DNA of 64,000 nt from Scenedesmus sp. PABB004 (Eukaryota), in contig JABVCE010000037.1 of the NCBI GenBank assembly GCA_014905635.1, forward strand, positions 62,001 through 126,000, in the 5' to 3' direction. How positions within the stretch are numbered: position 1 is the stretch's first letter; each line of letters begins with the position of its first letter. The notes below the pieces were generated by a model. It saw only the letters and a program-made list of their open reading frames with translations, did no database searches and was not told where the DNA came from. Shown here piece after piece: positions 11,801 through 49,216 of this stretch. Both the position numbers and the translations under genes were made by a program.

Positions 11801-14800
11801 CACCTCCCAGAGGCCAGTCACGCCGTTGCACCTGGCGACAGGCGCGACGCCAGCGCCGGTGCAGGTGCCAGTGCAGGTCGCGCCCGTGGACGAAATGGCG
11901 CACGGGGCCGCGGACCAGGCGGCGTTGGCATTTGACAGGGTCAGGCTGGATGGCACGACACCTGGGCAGGCACCTGCAGTGCAGGTGCCGGGCGCGGCGT
12001 CGCGCGCAGGCGAGGCGTGTGAGTTGGCGGGGGCTGACCTGCGTGCCCGCCCGCGCAGGTCTGGCAGCTCGCACGCGCACGCACTCTCGCAGCCTGACGG
12101 CGTCGTCACGCTCCACTGGCCAGCAGAAGTGCTGCCGCACGTTGCGATGGGCGCGGTGGCGCTGCTGGTGCCGATGCAGTTGCCGGCGCACGTCTGGCCG
12201 GCTGCTGTGCTGGCGCATAAGGCCGGCCAGGCAGCGTTCTGCCCCGCCGAAGCGAGCTGCGAGCTGATGTTGGCGGGGCACGCAGCGACTGCGAGGCGGG
12301 GAGCGGCACACACGCAGGTGGATGGGCGGGACGGCACCACGGTGCGCCAGGCCGCGGCAGCGCCTGAGCCAGTGGCGCCGCGGACCGGCGTCCGGTCAGC
12401 CGCGCCCGCACCTGGCGGCCAGGGGCAGGGCCCCAGGGAGCAGCTCTGCTGCCGCGTGTCGCCATCGGCGCGCGGGCAGGCCGTGCCGTTGAACTGCGGG
12501 GGCCGAGTGATGGTGTACCTCTCGGTGAGTGTGCCGGGCCCGCACGTGGCGTTGCAGGCTTCGCCCGGTGCCGTGGCCCAGCTCCCGACGCAGTCAACGG
12601 GGCAGGGCCGGTCGTTGCAGTCGATCCTGCTGATCTGCCCGTCGACGGCTGTGCACGGCGCGCCGCCGTTGGCGGCCGCGGCTGCAGCAGGGGGTGCGCG
12701 GGTGCGAGGAAGCGGGCAGGGGTCAGGGGAGGGCGGGCGTGTGCAGGCAGGCATGTGCAGGCAGGGGCGCTCAGGGCGGCCGCATGAGCGACCCCACGAG
12801 CAGCCGCAGCAGGCCCTGCCGCCGCGCGTGCGTCCTGCCGCGGCGCAGGCCACTCACTGGTGATCTGAAACGTCAGTGCGCGCGTCCCTGGGCCGCACGC
12901 GGCGCTGCAGCTGCCGACGAGCCACGCGCCGGCGCAGTCCACAGGGCACGCCGCGCTGGCGCAGTCGACCTTGTCGCCCGCCAGGTACAGCCGGCCGCCA
13001 GAGAATAGGAAGCCGCTCTGCTCGTCCGACGCGCCCGCCGGCGCCGGCTTCATGAGGCGGCAGTCAAACGTGCCCTGCCCGACGTCCTCGTTGGGGACGC
13101 CGCTCACGCGCGTGGCGATGACCGCGATGCAGGGCGTCGAGGCGCGCGCGTCGCAGGCCGCCGCGCAGGCGTCAAAGGCCACGCCCGCGAGCGGCTCGGC
13201 CAGGGCGATGGGCTCGCCCAGCACCTGGTCCGTCGCCAGGTTGAACAGGACGCCCGCGAGCCGTGCGACCAGCGTGGCGAGCAGTCGCCGGCGGCTGCCC
13301 GCGCTCGCGTAGGCCCGCGAGGGCACGAACAGGAATTTCTTGTTGCCGTCGGGCGCGCTCTGCGCGCGGCGGCGCCGCGCGGCGGCGGCAGCAGTGGGCG
13401 AGCAGCCGCACGGCGGCGAGCGAGTGAGAAGCGGGCGGGCGGCGCGCGGAGGGCCCGACACGAGCAGCGCCGAGGCCGGCGCACGCGGGCGACGGCCGCC
13501 GCTGAGGCGGGGCGCGCGCGGAGGGGGGCCATCCGCCTCACCTCCAGCAGCAGCTCGCACTTGCCCGCCACAAACCTGCGCGCGCGCGACGGGCGCGCGG
13601 CGGCGGCAGGGGTGTCGGCGCGCGCCCCGCAGCTGCACCCGGCGCGCCCCGCAGCTGCACCACCGTGCGCCGCTGGCTGCTTGGTCAGCGCGCTGCTCCG
13701 CGCCACGCCGTGCCGCCCTCCCCTCTCCCGCGGGCGCCGGCGCACCGGAACATGATGCATCTGGCGTCTGCGGGGCACGCGGCGGCGCACGCGGCGGCCG
13801 TGGCGGCCGCGGGAACGTCGGCGGTTGGGATGTTCACGCTGGTGATGCGCCCGCCATCGAGCACCTGCACCTCCTTCACGCACTGCGTCACACTGGTGGA
13901 GCCTGCGGGCGGGCGGGCGAGCAGCAGGCTTGGCGGCGGCGGGCCCCACCCTCGCCCGTGCGTGCGCAGCAGGCCGGCCGCCGGCGGCGCTGGCCCGCCG
14001 GCAGCGTGGCGGCGCACCTGCAGCCGACACGTAGCCGGCCGGGCACGGCTGACAGGGCCCAGTCTGCTCCGAGTCGGTGTAGGTGTTGGGCGCGCACTGC
14101 GTGCAGCCCGCGCCGGAGACGAGGCTGCCGAAGCCCGCGAGGCAGAGGGAGCAGTCAGACATACTGCCCGCCTGAGGGGCCGGCGTAGTCGACCCGGCAG
14201 GGCAGGCGGTGCAGTTCCCGGACAAGCCGCCTGCAGACCAGGTGCCCTTAGGGCACGGGATGATGCTTTCATCATCAACAGGGTTGTCGCCAAACCCAGG
14301 GGGCAGGCCCCCGTTTGTGGACTCAGCTGCGCAGAGGGGCGGCGACGGCAGTGGGCGGCCGGCTGGGCGCGGCCGTGCGGTCGCGGCGCAGCGCACACGC
14401 CGGCTGACGCGCGCGCCACGCACTGCACTCGTTCTCCGACACCGCTGCGACGCCCTTGGTGGTGGTGTTCCTGGTGCAGGGCTGGCACTGCCGCGCGGTG
14501 TTGAAGCCCGAGGACCAGGTGCCCTTGGGGCAGGGCTCCGCCGCGGCGCTTGCCTTGCGGGTGACGATGCGGTGCCCCGGCGCGGCCACTGCAGAGGGCG
14601 CGCAGGCAGCGGGAGTCAGCGGCGTGCATCGGCCCTCGCCAAGAGGGCGCGCAGCTGCCAGGTGCGCCGCGCTCGGCGCAGCAGCAGCCGCGGCGCTCAC
14701 GGCAGAACTTGGGCCCCGCGTTGGGCGGCAGCATCTCCAGCACGGCGTTGGGCGCCTGGTCCGCGGTCACCAGGTTGGGACCGCTGGCGGCGGCGGGTGC

Positions 14801-22790: not shown

Positions 22791-28537
<5,747 letters not shown>

Positions 28538-32165: not shown

Positions 32166-35100
32166 TCACACGCTGCTGGTGATGAGGACCGCACAGATGA
32201 CGGCCATGCTGACGATGTAGGCGCCTATGAAAAGGTACCTGCGAGTGGGTGAGTGGGTGACACACAGGGGCGGTGGCGGTGAGTCGGTGCGGCGGGTGGG
32301 GACGAGGCCAGGGGCGCAGCGGGCAGGCGCAGCGCGCGCCGGACGGCCCTCCCCCTCTCTTCTTAAAGCAAAAACACACGCGGGCGCGGGCGCCCACGGC
32401 CCCGGCTCACCTGCTGACGTGGTCGATCATCGATGACAGCAGCTGCCAGCGCCGGTTGAACTCGCCCGCCAGCCGGGCGTGCAGCTCGTGCGGCGCGGCG
32501 CCCGCGCCGTCGGCCACGCCGCCCACATCTGCGCCGCGCGGCAGTCAGTGGTGGCAACACAGCAGGCGCGCCCGCGGCGCCCCCCGCGCCGCGCCGTGCG
32601 CCGCGCCGCGCGTCGTGCCGCACCGCTGCCGCCGTCGGTGCTGCCGCTCCCGCCGGCGCCGGTGAGCGTCGCTTGCAGGCGCGCCGCGACGGCGTCCTCG
32701 CCGAACAGCGCGTTGGCCTTGGCCAGGCGGCGCTGCATCGGCGCGAGCGCGCGCTGCCGGGAGGCGAGGATGGCGGCCAGGTGGACGCGCAGCTCGTCGC
32801 GCGTCGTGCAACTCAGCAGTGCCGCGTCGCGCCGCGCCGCGGCGTCCTCCTCCCCCGGCCGCTCCAGGCCCATCTGCACCCCCACCTCGCCCAGCTCCGC
32901 CAGCACACGCCCGCGCGCGCGCCCGAGCATGCCGCCGCCGCCGGCGCCTCGGGCTGATGATGTCAGCGCGGCGGTCAGCGTCAGCAGCATCTCTGCTGGT
33001 GCGGCGGCCCCTCGGGCTGCCGTTACCGGCGCGGCGAGTCGGTGTGCAGCACTGGAGCAGGCTCGGCGTTATCTGCTTGGTGACCTGCTGCAGGATCAGC
33101 TTGCTGTTCACTCTGTGGCAGATTATGTGATGGACATCTGGAAGATGCGGGACACCGTCCTTAAGGGGCGCGGGACCAATGGGCGCGAGCCTATGGTGTA
33201 ACTATCTTTATCTTATTTTATCTTTTTATCGGCGCTCCCGCCGCCGTCGCTGCCGTTGCCCTCCGCCGGGCGCACGTCCGGAGCTGCGTCGGCCGCGTCG
33301 GCGCCGTCCCGCACCGCGGCCTCGCACGCAAGGCCCGACTTGGCGTGCGCGGTCGGCTGCTTGGACCCGAACTGCGAGCGGCTCGCGAGCCTGCGGCCCT
33401 GCAGCGCACCGAGCTGGCGCCGCACGAGCTCGACCCGGAGCTGGTGCACGCAGCCGAGCAGCTTCACCCACACGAGCTGCTCCCGATAGGCGAGCCCAGT
33501 CGCCGCCAGCACGCGCATGCCCCTGGCGGCCGCGGTGCGGCGGGCGCGCGCGGCGCGGGCGAGTCAGGCTCGCAGCCGGGCGGCGGCGTGTGCCGCGCCC
33601 GGGTCCCTCGCCCGTGCGTGCACACCGCACGCCGCTCGCCTGAAGTAGCCGTGCTCGCTGTGGTGCCAGAGCTGCAGGACCAGCGCGTTCTCCACCAGCA
33701 CCGCCTGCGCCCGCCGGCCGCGGGCGCGCGCGCGGGGCGCCGCGCGGCGCGCGTGGGCGGCGGCATGCGCGCCTCCGGCCACGCTTGCGGCACTGCCCCT
33801 CCCCCCCCTCCCCGCCGCCGCACGCGCCATCGAAAAGAGGAAGGCCATCAGTCCCATCGCGCTGACCAGCGTGACGCGGTTTGAGACGGGGAGCTGGGAG
33901 AAGGTCAGCAGGTCGTACACAGCGACCGCGAGCGGCACCGTGACGGCCAGCCCGAGGCGCTCGCCGCACGCGGGGCTCAGCTGCGCGCGCGCACGGGGCG
34001 CGGCGCGGCGGCCGTCGGCGCGCGCGGCGCGTGCGGCGTGGCGCGCGACAGTGTACGTGTGCGGCGACTGCCGCCGGGGGGGGGGGGGCTGTGCCGCGGT
34101 GGGGGGGCGGCCGCACCCAGAAGGTGGAGAAGGCGATGGCGGTGAGGATGATCTGCGGCACGATGACCTGCGGCGAGCGGCGCGCGGAGCGCGGGCGAGC
34201 GGCGCGGTGGGCGGCGCACGGCGGCAGCCCCGCCATCACCCCCAGCTCGCTCCCTCCCTCTCCCTCCTCTCCCTAAACCCTCCCGCCTGCCCCCAGGGTT
34301 AAGGCGCCCGTGCCTTCATGAGGTAGATGAGGTTCTGGCGTTCCAGCGCGACGTCGATGAGCACGACCGGCCACCCGCTCTCTGCGCGTGCGGTCGGGGT
34401 TCAGGGCCGCGGTTTGGGTTGCTTGACCGCGGTTGACCGCGGTTGACCGCGCCGGCGGCGCGCGCCGGAGCACGCCCCGCCCCCGCCACGCTGACCGTGT
34501 GGGCAGCAGGGGAGGGGCGGGTAGGTGAAGCGCCTTGCCTCGACGCCGGCGATGGTGTACTCGGTCCACACCGTCGACTCGACGCTCGTGATGCTGCCGC
34601 CCACGGTGTAGCCCTGCGCGCCGCGCTCGGCTGATGAGCGTGCCATGCTCACGCCGCATAGCGCGCGCGCGGAGGCAGTGGTGGCAGCGGCAGCGGAGGC
34701 GACGGCGGCGGCGGCGGCCGCGAGCTCGCGCCGACGGCGGGCCGCACCTTGCCCTGCAGGTGCAGGTCGACAGAGCGGGGCCCATAAACCCAACTCCCGA
34801 GCTCAAGGCTGCACCGCACGAGGCCGAAAGGGTACGCGCTCAGACCCTGACCGCAGGGCGAGGCGCGTCGGCGGGCGGCGTCAGGCGGCGCGCGGCGCGG
34901 CCGTCGCCGCACGCACGGCGCGCCGCGGCGGCGGGCGCGGCGCCGGGGGGCTGGACCCGCGCACCCTGAAGTTGCAGGCGACGAGGAAGGTGCCCGGGCG
35001 CGACCAGAAGACGCGGCCGCCCGGGTCGACGGCGAGCGGCTCCTGCCCGAGCGTGGAGGCGATCGGCTGCGCGCCGTTCCACAGCACGACGTCGGGCTGC

Positions 35101-35787
35101 CAGATCTCGGTGTCGCCCTGCTGCGCGTTTGCAAACCAGAGCCTCGACACGTTGAACGCCGCCGCGTCCCAGGTCAGCCGCGGGTCGGTCCACTCGAGCC
35201 GGTGCCACACCGCGATGTTCAGGGTGCCGCCATAGCTGCGCGCCCGGGGCGGCGGCGGGCGCGCGCTTGGGGCGGTGGGCGGGCGCGGCGGGCAGCGGCC
35301 CGGGCGCGCGCGCGCCGCTGCCGGCGCGCGTGCCCCCCCCCCCCTCTCACAGGTCGACGTCGAGGATCTTGTGCAGGGCGAGGTTGACGCTCACGTTTGC
35401 GGGGCCCGCCTCGGCCCAGGGGAACACGTTGGCGTCGTATCCTTCCAGCAGCGACGCGCGCAGCACCGTCTCCGCCACCACCTCGGTCGTGCTGCCGACC
35501 GGCAGCGCTGCCAAGCGTGCCTCCTCCGCGGTCGCGTTACGCGCGGCCGCCGCCGCGCCCGCCGCGAGCAGGGCGCGGCGGCGCTGCTCCGGGGGCGCCG
35601 TCGCCGCTGCCGCCGCCGCCGCGGCCGCCGCGCGCGCCTGCGCCGCCGCGAGCGCCGGCGGCACCTCGTGCTGCTGCCGCTGCTGCTGCTGCCGCCGCTG
35701 CCGCGGCGCCTGGGTGCTCGCTGCCGGCGCGGGCGAGAGCAGCTCTAGCAGCAGCAGGCAGAGCGCCATGCGCGGGAGCGAACGCAT
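32166..35787 (-). CDS. Pentameric Cys-loop ligand-gated ion channel (nAChR-like, about 11 exons); M3-M4 loop exon interrupted by an insertion, so possibly a disrupted allele
   Basis: Signal peptide; LLEGYD; WTDPRLTW; IWQPDVVLWN; CNFRGLSAYPFGLVRC; GSWVY; YPPLPCCP; M1 VIVPQIILTAIAFSTFW; M2 GERLGLAVTVPLAVAVY; M3; IDHVSR plus M4; stop at 32168-32166. Confidence 0.9.
33042..33230 (+). mobile_element. About 189-bp 3' fragment of a putative non-LTR retrotransposon, inserted antisense in a channel exon
   Basis: Abrupt GC drop. Encodes ...RYLLGDLLQDQLAVHSVADYVMDIWKMRDTVLKGRGTNGREPMV*, followed by a (TATCTT)n-like tail at 33203-33230. The host frame is the same on both sides. Confidence 0.7.
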
Positions 35788-36149
35788 GGCGGTCTGGCTG
35801 AGGTGCGCAGCGTCACCGGCGGCGGTCGCCGGACCCGCGCGGCGCGGCGCTGCCCCGGCCCGGCTCAGCAGAATGCGCCGGACCGCTTGCGCGCAGAGAG
35901 CGGGGGGTTCTGGGTGGTATGTAACATGAAAAAGCGCCGCCGCTGCTTCGCCGCTCCGGCGCGCCGCCCGTCGCCTCCGCGCCCTCCCGGCGCCGGCACA
36001 CCACGTGCGCTGGCGTGTGTAAGTATTTTTTACGGAGCGCCGCGCGCAGAGCTGCCCAGCTGCCCAGCGTTTTCCGGAGTGCTCCCGCGCTCGCGAGCCG
36101 CAGCCGGACGCGCGCCTGGCCCAGTGTCGTCGCTCCCTACGCACCCAGC

Positions 36150-37733
36150 ATGTTCCTGCTGGCCGTGCTGCTGCTGGCAGCGGCCGGCGCGCGCGCCGCC
36201 GACGACGCGCCGCTCGCGCAGCCGGCGCACCGCCACAAGCCGGCGCGCGCCGCCGCCAACGGGCTGGTCGCGTACGTCTCCAACGTCACCGGCGAGCTCC
36301 AGGCGCGCCCGGCTCCGCGCGCGGCGGCAGGGAGCGCAGCCCGGCGAGAGCTCAGCCCGCAGCGCGCGCCGCAGCCAGCCTCCGCTCCGCTCGCTGCGCC
36401 GAGCTTGGCACGCCCGCGCCGCGCGCGCCGCAGATCTGGGGCTCCGCGCCCGACGGCTCGGGCGCGGTCCAGCTCACCTCGGCGGCGATGGGCGTCGCCG
36501 CCGCGGCGCACCCGAGCTTCTCCCCAAACGGGAGCGTCATGGCCTTCTCAGCGGCGCCGCCCGGCGGCTCCCAGTTCAACATCTGGCTGCTGCACCTGCC
36601 CACGCGCGCGGCGCGGCAGCTCACGCACTGCGGCGGTGGCGGGCCGGGCGCGCAGTGCATCGTGCCCGCGTTCACCGCCGACGGGCGGCGGGTGGTGTTT
36701 GAGTCGAACCGCGACGGCGGCGGCTCGGGCGCGTTCGAGGTCGGCGCGCAGCGCAGCGCGCACGCGGGTGCCGCACCGGCGCCCGCGACGCCCCCCCCCC
36801 CCCCCCCCCTCACCTGCAGGCCCCTCCCACCCGCTCGCCTGCCGCGCCGCGCCGCGCCGCGCCACAGCTCTACTCGGTGGACGCCTCCACCGGCGGCGAC
36901 CTGCTGCGCCTGACCACCACTCCCGCCGGCCGCTCCAGCATGGGCGGCAAGCCCAGCCCCGACGGCCGGTGCGCGCGGAATGGCGCCGGCGGGGCCGCCC
37001 AGGGCCGGCGGCGCGGGCGGGGCGTGGGCGGGCTCAGGCGGCGCGCCCGCCCTGCCGGCGCACGCGGCCACGCGCGCTGCCCGCCCACCCCCTCGCTGCT
37101 GCGCAGCTGGCTCGTGTACGCGTCGGACGCCGACGTTGCCATGCCGGCGGGGCTGTACGACCTGCACGTCGCGCCGGCCGGCCCCCGGGGTGAGCTCGTC
37201 GGGCCGCCGCGCCGGCTCACGCGCGGCGCGGCCAACCAGTTCAGCCGCGGCTGGGCCCCCGACTCAAAAGCCGTCACCTTCAACAGCCAGGCGCGCCCCG
37301 CAGCGCCCGGGCGGCACCAGCACTCCAGCCAGGCAGAGCGCGTGCGCGCGCGGCCGCGCAGCTGACCGTCCGCCACGCCTGCGCCGCGCGCGCGCAGGTC
37401 GGGTGGAACGCGACCTCACCGGGCGCGGGGCGCATCATGGTGGTGCGCCGCGACGGCAGCGGCCTGCGCGCGCTCACGGCGCCCAACGGCGCGTGGCCGC
37501 CGCTGGCGCAGCCGTTCCCGCAGCTCCGCGGCGACGTCACGCCGGCGTGGAGCCCGGACGGCGCGCGCGTCGCGTTTGCGAGCCAGTCGCCGCCGGACGG
37601 GGCGTTCCAGGTGGTCAGCGTGCGCGCGTCGGAAGGCGGCGGCCGCGTGGCGATCACGGCCAACCCCGGCGCGCTGCACGCGAGCGTGGGCTGGCAGCCG
37701 CTGCCGGCGGCGCGGCACCACCACGGGCGCTGA
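36150..37733 (+). CDS. Secreted TolB-like (PD40 repeat) beta-propeller protein (5 exons)
   Basis: Signal peptide MFLLAVLLLAAAGARA; repeats PSFSPNG, PAFTADGRRVVFESNRDG, PSPDG, WAPDSKAVTF, PAWSPDGARVAFAS. Confidence 0.85.
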
Positions 37734-37755
37734 GGTGTCTCGCGGGACGCTGCCT

Positions 37756-37760
37756 TGTAA
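37756..37760 (+). promoter_or_regulatory. TGTAA green-algal polyadenylation signal of the TolB-like gene
   Basis: TGTAA about 22 nt after the stop; UGUAA is the established chlorophyte near-upstream element. Confidence 0.55.
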
Positions 37761-37789
37761 CTGCACGGTGGTGCGGCGCGGTGAGCGAT

Positions 37790-38442
37790 GCGCTGGCGGC
37801 GGCGCGGCAGCGGCTCGAGGACACTGCGCGAGCTCAACACCTTCCCCAGCCTCCGCGTCGTCGAGGCGTCGCGCAACCCGCGCCTCGGCGGGCGCCTCCC
37901 GCCGGCGCTCGCGCACCTGCGCGGCCTGACGGTGCGCGCCGCGGCGCGGGCGCCGGCCCCCGTGGCGCCCGCACTCTAGGCGTGCGCCAGCTGGCACCCG
38001 TGGGCAGTCGCGGCGCCGCCTCGAGCCGCCGCCGCCGCCGCCGCTGCCACCGGTGCCGCCGCCGCGTCGCAGGAGTTGGATGCCGCGGGGTGCGGCTTGT
38101 CCGGGCCGCTCCCGTTTGCGTGGGCGTCGCTCACCAATCTCACGAGCCTGGACGTCTCAGCCAACGCCCTGACCGGCGCGCTGGTCTCTGAGTACGGCGG
38201 GCTGGTGGGACTGGCAGCTCACGCTGGCCGCCAACCTCTTCACCGGCGCCGTGCCACGCGCGTGGTCGTCGCTGCGGGGCCTGCCCCCGGGCGCGATCGA
38301 CCTGCGCGACAATCCGTGCATGCCGCCGGCCGAGCTGGCCGCGAGCGTGGCCACAGCGGGGCTGGGCGGCGTGGTGCGCCTCGGCGCCCTCGACGGCGGC
38401 GGCAGCTCGCGGCCGTGCCCAGGCGGCGCACGGCGGCGCTGA
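37790..38442 (+). pseudogene. Frameshifted 3' remnant of an LRR gene paralogous to the end of the 39001-44877 gene
   Basis: Same intron position (LAHLRGLT|ELDAAGCGL vs LAYLRGLQ|ELSLAGCGL). Frameshift near 38212 (GLVGL/QLTLAAN). 38250-38440 nearly identical to 44658-44850. No 5' exons; TGTAA at 38462. Confidence 0.8.
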
Positions 38443-39000
38443 TGTTGTCGCACCGTCGTACTGTAAGCGCGTCGCTGGGTGCGCAGCCGGCCTGGGGCGC
38501 AGCCGGGATCGCAGCGGGCGGTCGCCGGCCGACGCTTCCGCGTCGCTTCGCGCCCCTGCCCCGCCAGCCGCTGAGCCTGCGCGTGCGGGCAGTTGTCGTG
38601 CCAGTGCACGCGTGGGACCGGGCGCAAGCAGCGCGGCGCGGCCCAGCGCGGCGGGAGCGGGCAACGAAGAGGGCAGCTTTTTTCACGTGATCCCTGGCGG
38701 CCCGGTTGTCGGCTGCGATCTTACTGGGCTGTCTCAGCACCCGACAGACGTCATATCCACGCCGCCGCCGGGCGCGCGCGACCGCGGGCGGCGCGCAGGA
38801 AGCAGCGCCGGCCGCACCTTGAGGTTGGCGTCCCGGCCCCCTGCGAGCGTCGCAGCAGCCGGCCACTCGGTCGAGCAACGGGAGCGCGGCGGCGGCCAAG
38901 CGCTGGCGGCGGCGTCCCAGCGCAGCAGCGGCGGCCGGGTGACTGCGCCTCGCCTCCTGTGGCGCTGAAGCTCTTGCTGCGGCCTGCCGCGGCCGGAGGT

Positions 39001-42000
39001 ATGCTCCGGCATAGAGCAGCACTGCTGCTCGCGGCAGTGGCGGCGCTGCTGCTGGCCGGCACCAGAGGTGCGCACCGCCTGCCGCAGGCCGCGCGCCGCG
39101 CCTGCGTCCGCTTCCGCTGACGCGCGCTGCCCGCCCGCCCCGGCGCGCGCCCAGGTGTCGCGGGGCAGGGCCTGGGCGTGAGCCCCGACCAGCTCGGCGA
39201 GGGCGAGGCGGCGACGGCGAGCCAGTTTGAGGTGTTTGAGGACGCGCTCGCCCTCGCGGCGCAGTCGACGGGCGGCCGCGGCAACGGCGGCAGGGGCGGC
39301 ACAAACGTGGGCAGCAGCGCGTTCACCGACGCCGACAGACTGCGCACGCTGCAGGTGCGACGGTGTGCGGGCGCGGCGCTGCCGCAGCTCGCGCCGCCTC
39401 GTGCCTAGGTGTGCGCGAGCGCACCTCAATCGCCCGCCCACTTCTGCGCACGCCCGTCCTCCCACCAAACAAACCACAGACGGGTGTGTATTACCTGGCC
39501 GGCGCGGCGGAGGCGTTTGGGACGTGCCGAAGCGGCGGCGCCGGCACGGCGCGGCGCGGGCGCGTGCCGCGCCGCGCGACGTGCAACGCCTTTGTGCCGC
39601 CCCCGCGCGACCAGAAGGAGTGTTCCACGTGTGTGAGCACCGCGGTGGCGACCGCGATGCAGATAGCCGCCGCGACGGCGCTGCAGCAGGACGTACGGCG
39701 CTGGGAGGTCAACCCGGCCTCGCTTCACTACTGCTCTGCTGGCGGCCGCACCTGCCGCACCGGCTGGGACATCCAGCTCGCGCTGAACGCGGTGGTGAGC
39801 GCACGAGAGCGGCTGGTGGGCGCAGCAACGGGCGGGGCGCTCGCGCCTGCCGCGTTTTGGCCTGCCGCCTGACCCGCAGCCGCCGCTGCGGCCGCAGGTT
39901 GACGAGGCGCCGCAGCTCATCCGGCCCGCATCGTGTGTGCGCAACGTGAGCGTTATGGTGGACGCGGAGCTGCAGGGGGGCGTCACGAGCTGGCGCGACG
40001 CGTGCGCGGCCGCGTCTCGCGCCTGCGCGCGCGAGAGCAGCAAGGAGCAGCCGTACGTCAAGTGCAGCTACAAATCACTCAGCAATTTCTGGGAGGTGCG
40101 CTGCCAGGGGGTGGACGAGGCCGTGCCAGCAGCGGCGGCCCGGGCGGCTGGCGGTGGCGCACCCACCGCCCCCCGCCCGCGCCGCACGCCCCCGGCCCGT
40201 CATCGTTTGGCCACTGCGCCCGCCTGTCGCCGCCCGCAGATCCAGCAACACATCCGCAACCACGGCGCCGTGGTGAGCCGCATCAGCATTTACGACGACT
40301 GGGAGGTCCAGTTCAACGCCTCCGCGGGCGCCGTGCGCGGCGAGGAGTGGCCGGCGTACCGATACAACGCGACCGCCCGGCCCCTGTTTGGCCACGCAGG
40401 CGCGGCGCGCGGGCAGGCGCAGCGCGCGGCGCGCAGGGAGGCGGGGCGCTGCGGCGCGCGCCAGGGCGTTCACGCGGCCGCCGCGCGGCGGCGCCGCCGA
40501 GCGCGGCCTCACTCGTGCCGCCGCTGCTGGCACTGTCGTGCCTGTTTGCACAGTGACAATCGTGGGATACAACAACAGCGATTACACATGGTGCGCTGCC
40601 GCGCCCGTGCGCACGCGCAGCACCATCACACCGCCGCCGCGCAAACACGCGCTGACGCCGCGCGCCCGCTCGCCAGGCTGGTGCTGAACAGCTGGGGCGG
40701 CGCGACAAAGGCGCAAGTGCGCACCAAGGGCTTCACCGCTGACGGGCTCTTCCGCATCAAGATGGGCGTTGCTGGTGCGCGGGCTGGCCCGCCACCAGCT
40801 GCTCTCGCGCAGCTGCGCGGTCGGCCGCTGCAGCCGCCTCACCTGCTGCTGCCTGCCCGTGCCCGCTCCTGGCTGCCCTCGGCTGACCGCCCGCCACGCT
40901 CCCTCCCTGCCCACCGCCCACCCTGCCCGTCGCCTGCCTGCAGCGGTGGGCACGCCGGACGAGACGTACGGCCTGGAGTGCACGCCGGTGCCGGGCGCGC
41001 CACAGCACGATCCGCACTCCACGCAGCCCTGGCGCGTGCCACGGCCCGTGGAGCTGCTCGACCCGGTGCGCGACACGCTGGACCTGCGCGCACCGTGCGT
41101 GGGCTACCGCGTCGCGCGTGGCGACACCCTGGCGTCGATTGTTGACTCGTTTGGCATCGACATGCGGCGCTTTGTGCAGCGCGACAACGCGGCGCTCTGG
41201 CCGCGCCAAAACGTGAGCTACACGCTCGGCCCGTCGCTGACTGACGCGGAGCTCGGCATGGTGCTGGCCACGGCGAAGGACGTGCTCGCAGCGCCGCGCG
41301 CGCCGCGGCCGTACGCAGCCTGCACGCACTACGACGCGTCCGGCGCCGCGACGCGCCGCACCTGCGACGCCGTGACCGGGCCGGCGGCGTGCGGGCTCGG
41401 GCGCGGCACCGTGGGCTGCGCTCTGCATTTCACGGACGCAAACCTCACGCGCACGCCGGCGCTGGGCACGCGGCTGGCCATCTGCCGCGCGTCGCAGCTG
41501 GAGGACCCGGCCGGCTTTTACGCGGTCGCGGCGTTTGCGGACCGGGAGGTCGCGCAGGTCCGGGCGCTGCTGGGCCTGGTGCAGGCGGTCGCGCCGGACT
41601 ACACGCCGCCCGCCGAGGCGGCGCGGCTCAGGTGGTGGACATGCGGAACGTCGGCCACCGCGCAAGACGCTACCAAGTCCATCCCGCTTCAGGCGGGCAG
41701 CGGCGACGAGCTGGTTCTCAGCGCGGGCGTGGGGGATTTCTCACGGCCCTTTAACAGCAGCACGTGCGGCACACTGGGTGTGGTGAAATCGGTGGAGATG
41801 TTCATCTTTCGCAACCCGCCGAGCGGGCGCGCGCGCATTGCCTTCACGCCCGCGCTGCTCGCGCCCCTGCTGAGCCTGCGCGGCAGCCTCGCGGGGCTGT
41901 GGCTGGGCGACACTGTCGGCAGTTGGGAACTGCCGCCCCAGCTGGGCTCGCTGGCAGCGCTGAAGATGCTGTTCTTATCACACCCATGCTTCACTGGCAG

Positions 42001-44877
42001 CCTGCCAGCCAAATGGATGGACGGCGGCTGGCGGTCGACGTTGACTGCACTCTCTGTGTTGCCGTTCTTCGCGACCACAACTGCGCCCGGCTGCGGCGTG
42101 ACAGGGACAATTCCGGAGGCCTGGCTGGCGCGTCCCACGGCACTCAAGGAGCTTAGGCTGCTCGACCAGCGCCTGTCTGGCAAGCTCCCGCCCAGCATGG
42201 GGCGCTGGCGGCGGCTGGAGAGCCTGGTGAGCCAAGTGCGGTGCTGCCTTCGCTGCCCGCACCGCCGTTGCTCACCTGCCGCGCAACTGCCTGCCTGCCG
42301 CCGCCCGTGCTGTCGCGCCCGAAAACAGATACTCACGAACAACACCTTCTCGGGGCTCCTGAGCCCAGAGTGGAGCCAACTGCGCTCTCTGTCAAGACTG
42401 TGGCTCGGCGGCAACCGCCTGACCGGCGCGGTGCCGGCGTCGTGGGCGGCGCTGCAGAACAATGTAGACTTGGACCTTAGTGACAACGCAGGCCTGAGCG
42501 GCTGCCTGCCCTTCGACCCCCCGTTTGTGGACAGCGTGGAGCGCAGCGGCACGGCCATCACCGGTGCGTGCAACAGCAACGAGGGCGAGGCTGCCCAATG
42601 GCGCGCGCTCAACACCACCCTGCGCGACGTGCTGCTGTCGGGCGCGGACGCGTCTGTGCACGCCGTGTTTGACCGCATGCTGGCCCAGCTGCGGCCGCTC
42701 AGCAGCGCGCTGGCCGATGGAGATAAAATGCTCACGTACTCGGCAGACGGTGAGCCCCCTGGTGGCGACGGGCCAATCCCCTGGTCCATCAATGTCGATG
42801 TGCAGCGCGTGGACAACGGCGTGGGCGTGGTCGGCATCAACGCGTTTGGCGAGCAGATCCTCGGCATACACACCAGCCTGCTGCCCAAGCTAGCAGCCGT
42901 GCTCTCGGACCTTCAATACTTCCGGTGCAGATCCTGCCGCAGCAACAGCACCGCCGGCGGCCCCGCGCGCCCGGCGGACACGGAGCTGCCGCCGGGCCTG
43001 CCCGCGGCGGCGCCGAAGCTCAAGGTCCTGCACTTAGAAGACTCTGCGCTGCGCGGCACGCTGCCGCCGGAGTGGGGCCGAGGCTGGGCGCTGGAGGCTC
43101 TGGAGCTGACCGGCAACGCGATCAGCGGGTCCCTGCCGGCTGCTTGGAAGGACCTCGCATCGCTCACAACCCTTGACCTTTCAATCAACGCACTGGAAGG
43201 GAGTCTGCCGCCCGAGTGGGGCGAGGGCGTGCTGCCGCCATCGGCATGGATCAGTGTGTCTCAAAACGCTGGGCTCAACGGCACCGTGCCGGCGTCCTGG
43301 GCACGCTTCCAAGGCGTCTCAGTCGAGGGCACTGCAATCGACGGCTGTGCGCCGGGGGGCCTGGATGTGTACGGCACCACCGGCCAGCTGCCATCGTGCT
43401 CAGACCCAGAGCGGAGCGCCCTGGACGCGCTGCAGGCGCTGCTCACCAACGCAAGCCTGGAGCACGGCGCGGCCAACAACCAGTCGCTGGCGTCCTGGTT
43501 TGTGAAGCCTGCATACTCATACCAGATAGGTGGGTGATGCGGGGCGTGGCAGCGGTGGCACAGCGCTGCTTTGCTCGCTGCCGCGCCGCTGACGGCCGCC
43601 CCGCTGTGCCACCGACACCCGTGCTCGCAGTGTTCCCGCATTGTGACGGCTGGGCGGGTGTGGCCTGCGACGCGACCAGCCGCCGCGTGACCAGCCTGGA
43701 CCTGTCGGGCCTGGGGCTGCGCCTTGCGCCGCTGGCGCTGGAGCAGGTGACGTCGCTCGCCGCGCAGCTGCCGAGCCTGCGCAGCCTGGTGCTGGCGGGG
43801 CTGGGGCTGGGCGGGAGCCTGGACGCCGCCGCGGCCGACCTCGTGACCCTGGCCGCGCTGGAGACCCTCAACGTGAGCGGCAACCCCGAGCTCGGCGGCG
43901 GCCTGCCCGCTGACCTGGGCGGCGCGGCGGCGCTGCAGGTGCTCGATGTGTCTGGCTGCGCCCTGGGCGGGCCGCTGCCTGAGGGGTACGTAGCGCTGCA
44001 GCGCCTGCGCGTGCTGCGCGCCAGCGGCAACGTCGGCGTGCGCGGCGCGCTGCCGCTGGCGTGGGGCTGGCTGCAGGAGCTTGAGGAGCTGGACCTGCGC
44101 GGCTGCAACCTTGCGGGGGCGCTGCCGGCGGCTGCCTGGGCCCAGCCGCTCGCGTCCGCGGCGGCGCGCGCGGCGCTGGCCGCGGCGGTGCGGCCCGGCA
44201 GCGCAGCCGGACTGGGCGTCGCGGCGGTGGCGGCGCGCGCGGCGGGCGCGGGGCGGCGCCGGCGGGCCAGGGGCCGCTGATGGCGCGGCTGCGCGTGCTG
44301 CGCCTCGGCAACAGCGGCCTCACCGGTGGGCTGCCGCCCGAGCTCAGCCAGTTCAGCGGGCTGCAAGTGATTGACCTGGCGCGCAGCCCGGGGCTGGGCG
44401 GCGGGCTCCCGCCGGCGCTTGCGTACCTCCGCGGCCTGCAGGTGCGGGCCGGGGGCGAGGGGGAGAGGGGGGTGCTGCTTCGACCGCTACGTGCACGGGT
44501 GCGCCTGCTCACCGCCGCCTCTGTTGCTTCTGCCTCCGCCGCCGCAGGAGCTGTCGCTGGCGGGCTGCGGGCTGGGCGGGCCGCTGCCGACGAGCTGGCT
44601 GGGCCTGGTGAACCTGCGGGAGGGGCTCGACCTCTCGTCCAACGCCCTCACGGGGACCGTGCCACGCATGTGGTCGTCGCTGCGGGGCCTGCCACCGGGT
44701 GCGATCGACCTGCGCGACAATCCGTGCATGCCGCCGGCCGAGCTGGCCGCGAGCGTGGGCGCGGCCGGGCTGGGCGGCGTGGTGCGCCTTGGCGCCCTCG
44801 ACGGCAGCGGCAGCTCGCGGGCGTGCCCGGCGGCGCACGGCGGCGGCGCTGATACGGCTGCACGCAACGTCTGCTGA
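39001..44877 (+). CDS. Secreted papain-family (C1A) cysteine peptidase + LysM + multiple LRR blocks (about 12 exons)
   Basis: Signal MLRHRAALLLAAVAALLLAG; PRDQKECSTCVS (Gln/Cys), FGHAVTIVGYNN (His), LVLNSWG (Asn), GLFRIKMG; LysM-like YRVARGDTLASIVDSFGIDM; plant-type LRRs LxLxxNxLxGxLPxxW; stop TGA 44875-44877. Confidence 0.85.
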
Positions 44878-45037: not shown

Positions 45038-48000
45038 TCACCCGTTCTCCTGCTGCTCCTCCCCCGCGCCGCCGTCGCCGCCGTCGCCGCCGCCGCGGGC
45101 CGCCGCCGCCGCCGCGGCGAGCTGCTGCTCCGCGGTCGCGCTGTACGCGCTCGACTTGTGCTTGGGCGCGAAGCGGAAGCCCCGCGGCGCGGGGCCGAGC
45201 AGCATCTCGCTCAGGGCCACCCAGTCGGCCGCGGCCTCGGAGCTCAGCAGCGCCTCGAGCTCGCTCCGCGCCGCGTACGCGGGCGGGCGCCACTGCATCT
45301 GCTGCGGGACGACCTCCAGCAGGCCCACCGGGATGTACCTGCGCCCACGAGGGCGCCGCGCGCGCGCGGGCGGCGGGAGCACGCGCGTGGCCCGCGCCGC
45401 CGCGGCGACGGCGGGCGCGCCGCGGAGGCGAGCGGCGCGCGCCGCGCCCCGGCGCCGTCTTGCCGCCCCGCCTGGCGCAGCAGCGCTGTCCCCCTGCCGC
45501 CGCCGCGCCTGTGAGTGAAGCTGAGCCACTCGAGCAGGAAGCTGCGCGTGGCCTCGACGCCGCGCGCGTCGCTGCCCCAGTGCTCCAGGCCGTGGCCCAC
45601 AAACGTCTTGAGCAGCTCCAGGCGCTCCCCCGCGCTGATGTCCCACAGCCGCTGCTCCCGGATCTCTGCCGCGGACCGGCGCAGCGTGCGGACGGAGCGC
45701 GCGGCGCAGCGCGCGGACGGAGCGCGCGGGCTCTGAGATCGCGCCGCCGCGCGGCCGGTCAGCGCCCGCCGCCAAACCATGCACACGCGTGCGCGCGCGC
45801 GGGCACACACGCAAGGGCGCACCCGTGAAGATCCAGGGCTTGATCAGCGCGGCGCGGCCGATCATCGCCGTCGCGACGCCGCTGCTGCCGAGGCGGTCCG
45901 CCCACTCCGCGTAGCTGAACACGTCACCGTTGCCCACCAGCGGCACGCCCGCGCCCGCCGCGACGCCCGCGCACCGCCTGGCGCGGCGGCGGCGGCGCGA
46001 CCGCGGGCAGGCGCGCGCGCGTGTCGGCCTGCGCGGCCGGCTGGGCTGGCGTGCCGGTCGGGACACGCGCCCCGCGGCCCCCTCGGGTGGCTGCCCCCCC
46101 CCCCTTCTCGGGGCGCACCGGATATAGTCCCAGTCAGCGGCGCGGCTGTAGCGCTGCTGGCGGCTGCGGCCGTGCAGCGTGACCGCCGCCGCGCCCCAGG
46201 CCGCGATCCGGGGGATGAGCTCGTGTGCGACGTCAGCGTCGTCCGCGTAGCCCTTCCTGCGCGCCGCGCGCGCGCGCGCACGGGAGCGGCGGAGAGCGGC
46301 GGAGAGCGGGGGCGAGGGCGCGGGGGTGGTCGGAGCCGGCCACGCCGCAGCGCGGCGCGCCGCCGCGCGGCGCCGCCGGGGGCGAGCCAGCGGCGCCGGC
46401 CGGTCGCCCCGAAGTCCGCCCGCGCCCCAAGGGCCCAACTACACACACGCGCACACACACACACACACACACACACGCGCGCACAAACACACGCACAAAC
46501 ACACACAATGCGGCGCACCGGATCTTGACGATCACCGGCCGGCTCAGCACGCCCGCCGTCGCGCGCACCACCTCCTCGAGCCGCCGCGGCCGCGTGAGCA
46601 GCGCGCTGCCGGCGCCGCGGCCGCAGATGATGTCGATGGGGCAGCCTGGCAGCCGGGGCCGGCGGGCGGCGGGCAGCGCGCGTGGCGGCGTGCGTGTGGC
46701 GGCGCGTGGCGGGCGCACCCCACCGCGCCGCAGCCACCGCCCGCGGCGCCCGCTGAGCTCCCGACACCCCGTGCGCTTTGAGCCCCGCCGCGGCCCCGCT
46801 GAACCCTGAGCCGCGCACCGCAGTTGATGTCAACATAGTCCACGTCGCACGCCTCGTCCACGAGCTGCGCGACGCGGGCCATGGTGTCAGGGTATCCACC
46901 ACACACCTGCGAGGGCGGCGGGTGCGTCAGCGCGGTGGCGGGCCGGAATACCGTTGGCGGCGAGGCCCGGCCGCTGGCCGCACGGCCGCTCCGCAGCGCG
47001 GCGCGCTGCGACCAGCGCCGCTGGCGCCGCCGGCACCGCGCCTGCACGCCAAAGATCTTCTCGCTGGGGTGCCGCTTGAGCAGCGCCCACTCGCTCGCCT
47101 GGCCCTGGCGGCGGCGCGCGCAGGCGGCCGCGCGGGCGCGGCGCGGGCGCGGCGCGCGTCGGCGGCGCGCCCCGGACGCGCCGCGCGCGCCACCCCGCGC
47201 CGCCGCCGCCGCCGTGCCTGCAGCAGGTTGGTCGCGAGCGCCATCTCGCCGCACGTGACCTCGCAGCCCAGCCCCACGCACAGCCGGCGGAACGGGAGGT
47301 TGCCGACCGTGGTCAGCGGGGCGAGGTAGGTCTTGCCGGCGATGTCCAGACCCCGCCGCGCCCGCGGCTCGCCGCGCGCGCCGGCCGCGTCGGCCAGGCC
47401 GCCCACGCGCAGCGGCGGCGGCGGCGCCGGCGACGCCTGCCGCGCCTGCTGCGGCGGTGGCTCGGCCTGCAGCGCCGCGACAAACGCAGCGTCGGCGCCC
47501 GGCTCGGGCGCTGCTGCTGCTGCTGTTGGTATTGCTGCTGGCGCTTCTGCCGCTGCTGCTGCTGCTGCTGCTGGCGCTTCTGCTGCTGCTGCTGCCGCTG
47601 CCTCCGGCGTCGGTGCTGGCGCTGCCTCCGGCGCCGCTGCCGCCGGCTCCGGCGCTGCCACCGCGGGCGCGGGCGCGGGGCGCGGCGGCGGATCGCCCGC
47701 GCCATACAGCGCGTCCAGCTCGTCCATCGCGTCGCCGGCCGCCGGCGCCTGCTGCGCCTCCGTGCCGGCGCCGTCCAGGCGCGGCCGCTTGGCCTCCTGC
47801 GACTCGGCGGCCGCGCCGCGCGCCGGCGCGCCGGCGCCGCGCTCGTCGTCGCGCGGCCGCCCGCGCCCGCCGTCGCCGCGCCCGCCGCCGCGCCCGCCGC
47901 CGCCGCGGGGCGCGCCGCCGCCGCCGCCGGCCTTCTTGCCGCGGCCCTTGCCCGTGACGCCGGGGTCGAGCCCCAGCGCCGCGAGCGCCGCCTCGGCGCG

Positions 48001-48618
48001 CCCAAAGTCGTGCCGCCCCTTCCACAGCGCCTGCTGCAGGGCCTTGTCCAGCACGTTGACCGGCTTGACCAGCTCCGCGATCAGCGGCAGCTGCGCGACC
48101 GGCGCGACCGCGACCGCCGCCGCGCCGGAGGGCTCGGCGTCCGCCGGCGCGGGCGCGGCCGCCGGCGCGGGCCCGCCCTCGCCGCGCGCGTGGGAGCCCG
48201 CCCAGCGGCAAGTCATGCCGTACGGGCAGGCCGGCTGCACAAGGGCAAAGGGGCAGCGCCCGGGCAGGTCGGGCGGCTTGGCCGCGAGGAAGGCGGCGGC
48301 GTCGTGGCTGAACTTGCAGGACTCGCCGTAGCCGCAGCGCCCCATCGCAAAGTTGGTGCACAGCTCGCCCTTTGCCGCCGCGCTGCGCTCCTTCTTGGCA
48401 GCCGCCCGGGACTTGCGCTCCGCGACCTTGGGCTCGGCCGGCGGCGGCGCGGGCGCGCCGGCGGGCCCGCCGCTGCCGCCCGGCTCGGCGGCCGCCGGCT
48501 CGGCGGCCGCCGGTGGCGCCTGGCGCGCCACGAAGGGCAGCAGGAACTGCTTCTTCACCGGCGCGATCCCACGCGCCATCAGCTCCTCCGCGCTGAGCTC
48601 AAGCAGCGACGGCGGCAT
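45038..48618 (-). CDS. DUS3: tRNA-dihydrouridine(47) synthase with N-terminal CCCH zinc fingers (about 8 exons)
   Basis: [94 protein letters not shown]. Confidence 0.95.
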
Positions 48619-49216
48619 CGCGGCGGCGCGGGGCCCGCGCTGCCGTTGCTGCTGCTGCGCCGTCGGCGGCGGCGGCTGCGCGCGCGGCGGCGGCTGTGCC
48701 TACGGGTCACGGGTGTGGAGGGGGCAGGGCAGCCGGCCGGCGGGTCGGCGGCGGCGGTGCGCGCTCCAGAGCGGCGTCCCGGCTGACGGTGTTGTTGCGC
48801 GGCTGCCGCTGTTGCGCGGCTACGAGCTCGCGCCGCGCTCGTCCTCCTCACTCAACGCTCCCGGCGTCGCGCCCCGACGCTGCCTGCGCCTGCGCGCAAG
48901 GCAGGCCGTGCGTTGCGGCCCACCACGCGCAGCAACAGCGGCGCCAGGCCCGGCACGCCCTCTCCCGGAGGCTCACGCGCGTCGGCCAACGCCCACGCGT
49001 GATCGCGGGGCCCGGCGCGCCCGGTCGGCGCGGCAGCAGCACCAGAGCAGCGCCCGCGGCCCTGCTCGCCCCCGCGCCCCGGCAGGAGGCGGCGCGGTCA
49101 CCCCCGGCCAGCAGGCGGCCCCCGCTCGCACCTGAGGGCCAGGCGCCGCGCGCGTGCCGCGCCCGCCGCGCTCGCCGCCGGCGCAGCAGTGCCGTGTGCC
49201 GTTTCCCCTGCGAGCG

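What the first reader, a model, noticed from the sequence alone, without database searches (positions are those of the whole stretch)
39001..44877. Secreted papain protease-LysM-LRR fusion: candidate extracellular sense-and-cut defence protein
Seen: after splicing, one polypeptide carries a signal peptide, a C1A peptidase with Gln/Cys (DQKECSTC), His (GHAVTIVGY) and Asn (NSWG) intact, a LysM-like motif (about 41104-41190) and several LRR blocks, with no transmembrane or kinase domain. Known: LysM binds GlcNAc polymers (chitin, peptidoglycan), plant-type LRRs are receptor ectodomains, and in land-plant immunity papain-like proteases and LRR receptors (Rcr3/Cf-2) act as separate proteins. Inference: the three functions are fused here, giving a microbe-targeted or ligand-gated protease. 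The Trp normally after the catalytic Cys is Val, and no I29 prodomain is evident, so activity or regulation may be unusual.
Basis: partly seen in the sequence, partly recalled or inferred. Interest (0 to 1): 0.8.

Follow-up and report, generated by a model that had tools for sequence, protein, structure and literature searches.

The report
Algal secreted protease with hypervariable LRRs
A green alga carries a family of secreted proteins that join a protein-cutting enzyme and a sugar-binding module to fast-evolving recognition surfaces like those of plant immune receptors, which suggests a targeted defence weapon not yet described in algae.

Summary
One gene (about 1,540 aa) encodes a signal peptide, a papain-family (C1A) domain with an intact Gln/Cys/His/Asn site, a LysM, and about 25 plant-type LRRs in three blocks, with no membrane anchor or kinase. 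It is one of a family: 13 of 17 other loci examined in this genome show the same order, and relatives occur across Sphaeropleales green algae.

Corrections: the LysM appears interrupted by an 83-residue inserted domain; a conserved non-I29 prosegment is present; Val after the catalytic Cys is family-typical (0 of 83 have Trp); and 'intron 10' probably patches a 1-base frameshift.

New here: exposed residues of LRR blocks 1-2 are hypervariable (16 of 70 differ from a near-identical copy, versus 14 of 527 other sites), while the protease and block 3 are conserved. Plant resistance-gene LRRs show the same signature.

Best reading (about 0.5): a secreted, LRR-addressed defence protease. Activity, ligand, enemy and ligand gating are untested. 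C1A-LysM fusions are already listed for Chlamydomonas; I found no report of the LRR-tailed, hypervariable form.

The parts
39001..44877 (+). Whole gene. Exons 39001-39067, 39155-39354, 39480-39794, 39898-40095, 40240-40399, 40554-40590, 40677-40774, 40944-42226, 42329-43529, 43631-44187, 44271-44441, 44548-44877; 1,538 aa as modelled
   Evidence: same chain in public model P0001
39001..39165 (+). Signal peptide, aa 1-26 (spans intron 1); cleavage before Gln27 inferred
   Evidence: hydropathy peak 1.99; GQGL motif follows the leader in relatives; no SignalP run
39166..39503 (+). Conserved non-I29 prosegment, aa 27 to about 97 (GQGL motif, helix, Gly-rich linker, helix)
   Evidence: the model of homolog P0036 aligns with pro-cathepsins from residue 47-50 and with most mature enzymes from about 126-128
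39504..40984 (+). C1A papain-type domain, aa 98-372: Gln134 (39612), Cys140 (39630), His312 (40393), Asn330 (40687)
   Evidence: Pfam PF00112 above cut-off; fold of homolog P0036 Z about 20
40400..40553 (+). GC-AG intron 5, splitting the His motif
   Evidence: the motif is contiguous in 8 paralogs lacking this intron
41096..41194 (+). LysM first strand and two helices, aa 410-442
   Evidence: Pfam 17.5 bits, below cut-off; family LysM profile
41195..41443 (+). 83-aa domain with four Cys inserted into the LysM between helix 2 and strand 2 (strand-helix-strand-strand-short helix-strand)
41444..41485 (+). LysM closing loop and last strand with terminal Cys, aa 526-539
   Evidence: best match to the tail profile of 32 compact family LysMs
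41501..42574 (+). LRR block 1, aa 545-868, 8 repeats; exposed residues hypervariable
42575..43399 (+). LRR block 2, aa 869-1143, 6 repeats; exposed residues hypervariable
43400..44874 (+). LRR block 3, aa 1144-1538, 11 repeats with a Cys-Trp-Gly-Cys N-cap and an Ala-rich linker; exposed residues conserved; the 3' part from about aa 1280 is recombinant relative to the nearest paralog
44188..44270 (+). Suspect 'intron 10': probably a coding Ala-rich linker with a 1-nt frameshift; if real and unspliced, translation stops at 44278-44280 and the last five LRR units are lost
37785..38442 (+). Orphan, frameshifted 3' tail (last LRRs) of another family member; travels with the gene in the duplicated segment

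Best explanation
A secreted, LRR-addressed defence protease, one of a diversifying repertoire.

Shown in sequence: signal peptide, prosegment, intact C1A catalytic residues, interrupted LysM, three LRR blocks, no membrane anchor; conserved protease, hypervariable concave surfaces in LRR blocks 1-2, conserved block 3.

Inferred: (1) it is exported as a zymogen whose GQGL prosegment lies along the active-site cleft, as in procathepsin B, and is removed outside the cell; (2) the LysM tethers it to a GlcNAc polymer such as chitin or peptidoglycan, possibly with altered specificity, because the insertion sits in the loop that forms one wall of the LysM sugar groove (LysM structure recalled); (3) LRR blocks 1-2 bind fast-evolving proteins of a parasite, bacterium or grazer (adhesins, wall-degrading enzymes, effectors), as PGIP-type secreted LRRs bind pathogen enzymes (recalled); (4) the tethered protease cuts the captured protein; (5) block 3 is a spacer or binds a constant self partner. 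It works by proximity targeting and has no signalling domain of its own.
For: Fusion: exon 8 alone joins the protease C-terminus, LysM and LRRs. 12 of 17 fetched loci are colinear C1A-LysM-LRR and a 13th (L033) has the same order. P0056 (923 aa on a 3,164-nt contig) and P0108 (827 aa on a 4,498-nt contig) carry all parts in one reading frame.

Protease kept: Cys/His/Asn in 48 of 53 members covering all three columns; C1A dN/dS 0.23-0.28 against four close copies.

Arms-race signature: against copy L021, whose introns 1-9 differ at 11 of 950 sites, 16 of 70 exposed xxLxLxx residues of blocks 1-2 differ versus 14 of 527 other residues. dN(exposed)/dS(same block) is 14 and 8, Fisher p 3e-6 and 1e-3. 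Against L023, 50 of 67 exposed residues differ versus 112 of 511 others and 14 of 275 in C1A. The pattern repeats in a Tetradesmus pair: exposed identity 5/19 and 13/30 in blocks 1-2 versus 64% and 70% elsewhere, but 43/54 versus 81% in block 3. The same signature marks plant resistance-gene LRRs (PMC3113787, passages).

Tail swapping: the C1A-LysM core also carries C-type lectin, fibrinogen-like, ephrin/TNFR-like, PSI, PLAT, BTRD1 or RCC1-like tails. A related alga up-regulates LRR- and LysM-containing genes during aphelid infection (PMC8657485, passages; these genes were not shown to be of this family).
Against: No activity, ligand, localisation or induction data. Diversifying selection shows a changing partner, not that the partner is an enemy.

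The selection test is a Nei-Gojobori count on two independent DNA comparisons; L020, L021 and L022 are 99.4-99.7% identical to each other. Pooled over all three blocks and using the exposed codons' own synonymous sites, dN/dS was 0.76 (L021) and 0.53 (L023). The signal above 1 needs blocks 1-2 separated from the recombinant block 3. For L023 the exposed codons' own pS (0.59, 0.76) exceeds their pN.

The LysM is below the Pfam cut-off and interrupted. Its tail ranked first in 15 of 16 members with the Cys column but only 9 of 16 without it. The window protein's own protease model was low-confidence (pLDDT under 50 for residues 1-374). This copy may be frameshifted near its 3' end.
Confidence: 0.5

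Rival explanations
1. Ligand-gated sensor-protease. The LRRs hold the protease off until a foreign ligand binds; the protease then cuts a self substrate (wall protein or pro-peptide) to release a danger signal, or block 3 recruits a separate membrane receptor.
For: Variable blocks 1-2 plus a conserved block 3 resemble the variable N-terminal and conserved C-terminal LRRs of Cf-type receptors (recalled). Chlorophyte receptor kinases carry protease-like ectodomains (PMC12757656, passages).
Against: No membrane or kinase domain. A prosegment already offers a way to keep the enzyme latent. The same protease core carries many unrelated tails, which fits modular targeting better than a dedicated allosteric gate.
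Confidence: 0.17
2. Self/kin or mate recognition. The variable LRRs read strain-specific wall glycoproteins, and the protease opens the wall for autospore or gamete release or for colony formation.
For: Reproductive and allorecognition proteins also diversify (own knowledge). A Volvox cysteine protease with chitin-binding repeats is induced by sex pheromone and by wounding (recalled; paper not held).
Against: The variation is between paralogs within one genome, 13 or more loci, which fits a repertoire against many foreign ligands better than one self mark. Lectin and fibrinogen-like tails point to non-self glycans.
Confidence: 0.15
3. Guarded-decoy pair (Rcr3/Cf-2) in one chain. The protease is bait for parasite inhibitors and the LRRs sense the inhibited protease.
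For: The two domain types are those of Rcr3 and Cf-2 (PMC7468133, abstract). Some members have lost catalytic residues: 5 of 53 and L033.
Against: The protease is under purifying selection and nearly invariant among close copies, and the chain has no signalling output.
Confidence: 0.08
4. Housekeeping wall-remodelling protease whose exposed LRR residues merely drift under relaxed constraint or gene conversion.
For: Gene conversion is evident: the 3' part of block 3 and introns 10-11 differ from L021 at 23/69 and 27/87 sites. Own-site dN/dS pooled over all blocks is below 1.
Against: In blocks 1-2 amino-acid change exceeds the neutral rate of neighbouring introns and synonymous sites about ten-fold and is largely confined to the concave face. 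The equivalent positions of block 3 are conserved.
Confidence: 0.07
5. Annotation artefact: neighbouring protease and LRR genes merged, or a pseudogene.
For: The public model does merge the upstream gene. There is a probable frameshift at 44188-44270, and sister copies show 1-2 nt indels.
Against: A single exon spans the junctions; the order is conserved in 13 loci and in Tetradesmus; single-frame relatives exist; the protease is under purifying selection.
Confidence: 0.03

Closest known systems
Chlamydomonas C1A/LysM proteins (PMC6362431, text and Supplementary Table 3)
   Same: C1A peptidase followed by LysM; some also carry galactose-binding, SRCR or C-type lectin modules.
   Different: They have 2-3 LysMs, and none of the five C1A rows has an LRR. 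They are listed, not characterised. Whether they belong to this Cys-Val/Thr subfamily was not tested.
Volvox pheromone- and wound-induced cysteine protease with chitin-binding repeats (recalled; paper not held)
   Same: Secreted green-algal cysteine protease joined to chitin-binding modules.
   Different: No LRR array is recalled; sequence not available here for comparison.
PGIP-type secreted LRR proteins and Cf/Hcr9 receptor-like proteins (recalled; selection signature as in PMC3113787)
   Same: Plant-type 24-residue extracellular LRRs with a Cys N-cap and hypervariable xxLxLxx residues; PGIPs are soluble.
   Different: They have no protease or LysM. RLPs have a transmembrane segment, absent here. 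Three LRR blocks here rather than one array.
Rcr3/Cf-2 (PMC7468133, abstract)
   Same: A papain-like protease and an extracellular LRR act in one recognition context.
   Different: Two proteins, with signalling through a membrane receptor; the protease is a bait. Here one soluble chain with a conserved protease and variable LRRs.
Cathepsins B, C, H and Xylellain (solved C1A enzymes)
   Same: Fold (Z 18.6-20.1 over about 190-245 residues for homolog P0036); catalytic residues align.
   Different: About 20% identity; Cys-Val instead of Cys-Trp/Tyr; own prosegment; long C-terminal modules.

Membership tests
Peptidase C1A (PF00112) | Pfam score above the curated cut-off | tested here: met
   29 bits vs 20.7 on the spliced public model; family profile hits cathepsin C at E 3e-26
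Peptidase C1A (PF00112) | Oxyanion Gln and catalytic Cys, His, Asn in order | tested here: met
   Gln134, Cys140, His312, Asn330 align with cathepsin columns; 48 of 53 members keep C/H/N
Peptidase C1A (PF00112) | Papain fold | tested here: met
   shown for close homolog P0036 (pLDDT 77.7; Z 20.1, rmsd 3.1, 225 aligned); the window protein's own model was low-confidence in this part
Peptidase C1A (PF00112) | Proteolytic activity, E-64 sensitivity | not testable with these tools
   needs a bench assay
Cathepsin L-like / plant PLCP zymogens | I29 (ERFNIN) prodomain and Trp after the catalytic Cys | tested here: not met
   no I29 hit; Trp in 0 of 83 members; a different conserved prosegment is present
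LysM (PF01476) | Pfam score above cut-off over the whole motif | tested here: not met
   13-17.5 bits vs 20.9, positions 1-24 of 43
LysM (PF01476) | Homology to a full LysM at the same position in relatives | tested here: met
   P0090 scores 38.4 bits over 1-42 of 43; 32 compact family LysMs; the N-half matches their profile and the tail is found 83 aa later
LysM (PF01476) | Closed beta-alpha-alpha-beta fold with paired strands | tested here: inconclusive
   secondary-structure order fits at moderate confidence (block pLDDT 46-87); strand pairing could not be read from the output; weak Foldseek row to a LysM protein, E 0.27
LysM (PF01476) | Binds GlcNAc polymers | not testable with these tools
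   needs a binding assay
Plant-type extracellular LRR | LxxLxLxxNxLxGxIP repeats with a Cys N-cap | tested here: met
   25 registers assigned; Pfam LRR_1/4/8 above cut-off; cap before block 3
Receptor-like protein / receptor-like kinase | Transmembrane segment, with or without kinase | tested here: not met
   hydropathy; Pfam
PGIP-like soluble recognition LRRs | Soluble, with diversifying xxLxLxx residues | tested here: met
   the protein works like this class but is not a PGIP, having extra domains
PGIP-like soluble recognition LRRs | Binds or inhibits a pathogen enzyme | not testable with these tools
   ligand unknown
Rcr3/Cf-2 guarded-decoy system | Separate secreted protease sensed by a membrane LRR receptor | tested here: not met
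   one chain, no membrane segment

The most novel reading that the evidence does not exclude
Sphaeropleales green algae have an antibody-like extracellular repertoire. A constant prosegment-C1A-LysM warhead is coupled to exchangeable recognition tails, and in the LRR-tailed branch tandem LRR cassettes are diversified by duplication, recombination and positive selection to aim, and perhaps switch on, the protease against specific parasites. That would be an effector-coupled variable receptor system in a unicellular alga, with a domain-inserted LysM as a second novelty.
Probability: 0.33. Interest if true: 0.9.

Novelty: new variant of a known kind. Interest (0 to 1): 0.74.

Why it matters
How unicellular green algae recognise parasites is largely open, and Scenedesmus-type cultures are lost to aphelid and chytrid infections (own knowledge; PMC8657485 for a related alga). 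This family gives named candidate genes whose sequence carries the arms-race signature known from plant resistance genes, coupled directly to an enzyme rather than to a signalling domain. The variable residues mark the binding surface, so ligand pull-downs and allele swaps are straightforward. If confirmed, it shows a route to specific extracellular immunity without membrane receptors, and a natural scaffold for retargetable proteases.

Tried and rejected
Expression: no RNA holder was listed. This is no evidence either way, and it left no reads with which to test the splice model or the 44188-44270 frameshift.

Structure of the window's own N-terminal 523 aa from a 6-row alignment: mean pLDDT 40.7, protease part unusable; I used homolog P0036 instead.

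Fold of the LysM insert: best Z 5.5 among 48,161 chains, no Foldseek match at E <= 0.001, no usable Atlas hit. This shows neither a new fold nor a known one.

Viral origin: 80 pattern matches in viral contigs, none confirmed.

Targeted, adenine-biased hypermutation as the source of LRR variation: not supported; the 24 substitutions at differing exposed codons fall into 11 types. Conversion from the L023-type copy as the sole source: rejected, as most L021 alleles differ from L023.

N-cap and C-cap alignments from P0056/P0108 gave low scores, not clearly above chance hits, so the caps of blocks 1 and 2 are read by eye.

The tree is the quick version only (64 rows, SH-aLRT, midpoint root). It places the inserted-LysM/LRR branch as a 10-row clade (96) and compact-LysM/LRR members in three other places, but it cannot order gains and losses.

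The third word-indexed homolog search returned only 6 proteins at E <= 1e-20 among 8,000 candidates. Earlier findings of this scan: none returned.

Literature: searches found no description of a C1A-LysM-LRR protein. The library lacks most subscription journals, and the supplements of PMC12757656 and PMC8657485, which may list such genes, were not read.

Full report
1. The gene. The window is 70-84% GC with short introns. Splicing at 11 introns gives an open frame of 1,538 aa from 39001 to 44877. A public model, P0001, labelled as a Scenedesmus species, has the same chain. It adds six residues at the exon-4 acceptor, which the paralogs lack, and fuses the upstream PD40-repeat gene to the 5' end, which I treat as a merge error because the gene has its own signal peptide. 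Intron 5 is GC-AG and splits the His motif; the motif is contiguous in 8 paralogs without that intron. The weak point is 'intron 10' (44188-44270). It has no branch-point-like motif and the lowest pyrimidine content of the 11 introns. Of 9 paralogs examined, 5 had both flanking LRR motifs, and in all 5 the linker is in-frame coding, whereas the window's spacing is 209 nt. It is most likely a 1-nt frameshift. Sister copies at contig ends show similar 1-2 nt indels, so an assembly error is plausible, but a real mutation that removes the last five LRRs is not excluded.

2. The fusion is real. Exon 8 alone carries the end of the protease domain, the LysM and five LRRs. A search of G000 with exon 3 gave 19 matches among 27 candidates. 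I fetched the 17 loci other than the window. Twelve are colinear C1A-LysM-LRR, three of them cut short (L020, L022, L023). L033 has the same order with a compact LysM and Ser in place of the catalytic Cys. L031 and L034 carry Cys-rich repeats and a fibrinogen-like stretch, and L031 also a C-type lectin domain; only L031's tail was scanned with Pfam. L035 has a weak RCC1-like hit, and L036's tail was not scanned. Tetradesmus obliquus has full-length homologs. P0056 and P0108 hold signal peptide, protease, compact LysM and LRRs in single reading frames on contigs of 3,164 and 4,498 nt; whether those contigs come from RNA is not known.

3. The family. A profile of the N-terminal 520 aa found 845 representatives at E <= 0.001 and 268 at E <= 1e-10 among 1.84 billion; only the best 150 were seen. 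Of 30 looked up, 17 carry an organism label: Tetradesmus, Scenedesmus, Enallax, Hariotina, Monoraphidium and 'Chrzof1'. Reading the last label as Chromochloris, and placing all six in Sphaeropleales, rests on my own knowledge. In 35 longer proteins scanned with Pfam, the tails include LRR, C-type lectin, ephrin/TNFR-like, fibrinogen-like, PSI, PLAT and BTRD1 modules. The constant core is prosegment-C1A-LysM.

4. The protease. Pfam C1 passes its cut-off. Gln134, Cys140, His312 and Asn330 align with cathepsin columns. Of 155 proteins aligned, 53 cover all three catalytic columns and 48 have Cys/His/Asn. Of 83 covering the position after the Cys, 54 have Val, 14 Thr, 10 Ala and none Trp. Cathepsin C has Tyr there, so Trp is not obligatory. 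The window's own model failed in this part. Homolog P0036 (69-row alignment, pLDDT 77.7) is papain-fold: Z 20.1, rmsd 3.1 over 225 residues. Against pro-cathepsins its alignment starts at residue 47-50, and against most mature enzymes at about 126-128, with some 20 more residues aligned to the pro-forms. I infer that the conserved GQGL prosegment lies where the cathepsin B propeptide lies. Per-residue alignments were not shown, and Xylellain and Cwp84 also align from residue 47-48.

5. The LysM appears interrupted. Pfam matches only positions 1-24 of 43 at 13-17.5 bits. Most other family members have a compact LysM at the same place, and one passes Pfam well (P0090, 38.4 bits). A profile of the last 14 residues of 32 compact LysMs (one tail mis-cut) ranked the segment at 41444-41485, or its equivalent, first in 15 of 16 LRR-type members. 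Without the terminal Cys column it ranked first in 9 of 16, and four members were scanned over only 150-176 residues. The predicted order is strand, helix, helix, an 83-residue insert, strand, and the insert behaves as a separate small domain. It sits in the helix 2-strand 2 loop, which in known LysMs lines the sugar groove (recalled), so chitin binding should not be assumed. Members with the insert fall in one clade of 10 rows in a quick tree (SH-aLRT 96); that clade also holds two shorter rows whose LysM is incomplete.

6. The LRRs carry an arms-race signature. I assigned 25 repeats in three blocks from the printed model. The gene lies in a segment of 10 kb or more that recurs inverted at the end of the same contig, at the start of C8 and as contig C73. 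Against the same-contig copy L021, introns 1-9 differ at 11 of 950 sites, C1A at 5 of 275 residues and LysM plus insert at 1 of 131. In blocks 1-2, 16 of 70 exposed xxLxLxx residues differ versus 14 of 527 others. dN at exposed sites is 14 and 8 times dS in the rest of the block (Fisher p 3e-6, 1e-3). Against the older copy L023, 50 of 67 exposed residues differ versus 112 of 511. Among distant paralogs and Tetradesmus homologs, exposed identity is 10-21% in blocks 1-2 versus 31-48% elsewhere in those blocks, but 39-63% versus 44-58% in block 3. A Tetradesmus pair repeats the pattern.

Against this reading: the three closest copies count as one comparison. Pooled over all blocks with the exposed codons' own synonymous sites, dN/dS is 0.76 and 0.53. 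For L023 own-site pS exceeds pN. The split at block 3 was made after seeing the data, though its recombinant 3' end shows independently in introns 10-11 (23/69 and 27/87 differences). No likelihood site-model was run. Positive selection confined to xxLxLxx is the pattern reported for plant resistance genes (PMC3113787, passages).

7. Mechanism. The most likely reading (0.5) is a secreted zymogen, tethered by LysM to a GlcNAc-rich surface, whose variable LRR blocks capture fast-evolving proteins of an enemy for cleavage by a conserved protease, with block 3 as spacer or constant-partner site. The architecture, the conservation pattern and the absence of a membrane segment are shown. Secretion, activation, sugar binding, the identity of the partner and any gating are inferred. 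Rivals: ligand-gated signalling protease (0.17), kin or mate recognition with wall opening (0.15), fused guarded decoy (0.08), housekeeping with drift (0.07), artefact (0.03).

8. Comparison and novelty. It is a member of C1A, not of the I29-bearing subgroup, not a receptor-like protein or kinase, and it works like a PGIP-type soluble LRR with an attached enzyme. C1A-LysM fusions are already listed for Chlamydomonas; none of the five C1A rows has an LRR (PMC6362431: passages and rows of Supplementary Table 3). Protease-like ectodomains are reported in chlorophyte receptor kinases (PMC12757656, passages). LRR and LysM genes respond to aphelid infection in Graesiella (PMC8657485, passages). Rcr3/Cf-2 is a two-protein guard system (PMC7468133, abstract). 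The Volvox protease with chitin-binding repeats is recalled only. Eight searches found no account of the LRR-tailed form, the inserted LysM or the selection pattern; the library is incomplete. Verdict: a real feature and a new variant of a known kind; interest 0.74.

Noticed in passing
window 36150-37733 (+): Secreted PD40/TolB-like beta-propeller gene directly upstream; public models merge it with the protease gene, and it is duplicated along with it.
   Followed up: partly
window 37785-38442 (+): Orphan frameshifted 3' tail of a family member, 91% identical over 190 nt to the gene's own last exon and about 90% to the 3' end of copy L021; a remnant of an earlier tandem copy.
   Followed up: partly
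window about 32530-44350; G000:C32 about 258-268 kb, C8 1-10 kb, C73: Recent segmental duplication of 10 kb or more at 97-99% identity; two copies end at contig ends. On C8 the segment joins directly onto a diverged family member (L023) just after its intron 9.
   Followed up: partly
L031 and L034 (G000:C5 about 1,063 kb; C18 about 249 kb): Sister genes with C1A, compact LysM, Cys-rich repeats and a fibrinogen-like stretch; L031 also has a C-type lectin domain and a second LysM with protease-like sequence before it. The module mix recalls animal innate-immune lectins.
   Followed up: partly
L033 (G000:C5 about 655 kb); P0098, P0131: Probable pseudo-proteases (catalytic Cys to Ser, His lost) that keep a compact LysM; L033 also keeps LRRs.
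   Followed up: no
L035/L036 (G000:C36): Pair of family members; L035 has a divergent LysM-like stretch and an RCC1-like tail (Pfam E 0.0012, below cut-off).
   Followed up: no
window 45038-48700 (-): tRNA-dihydrouridine synthase 3-like gene (Dus plus CCCH zinc fingers), convergent with the protease gene.
   Followed up: partly
window 7376-11852: Near-identical long repeats: three copies spaced 842 nt from 9869 and two copies spaced 1,527 nt from 7376, at 99% identity.
   Followed up: no
window 26624-27940 (+): Aconitase C-terminal-type domain hit, probably part of a small-subunit dehydratase gene.
   Followed up: no
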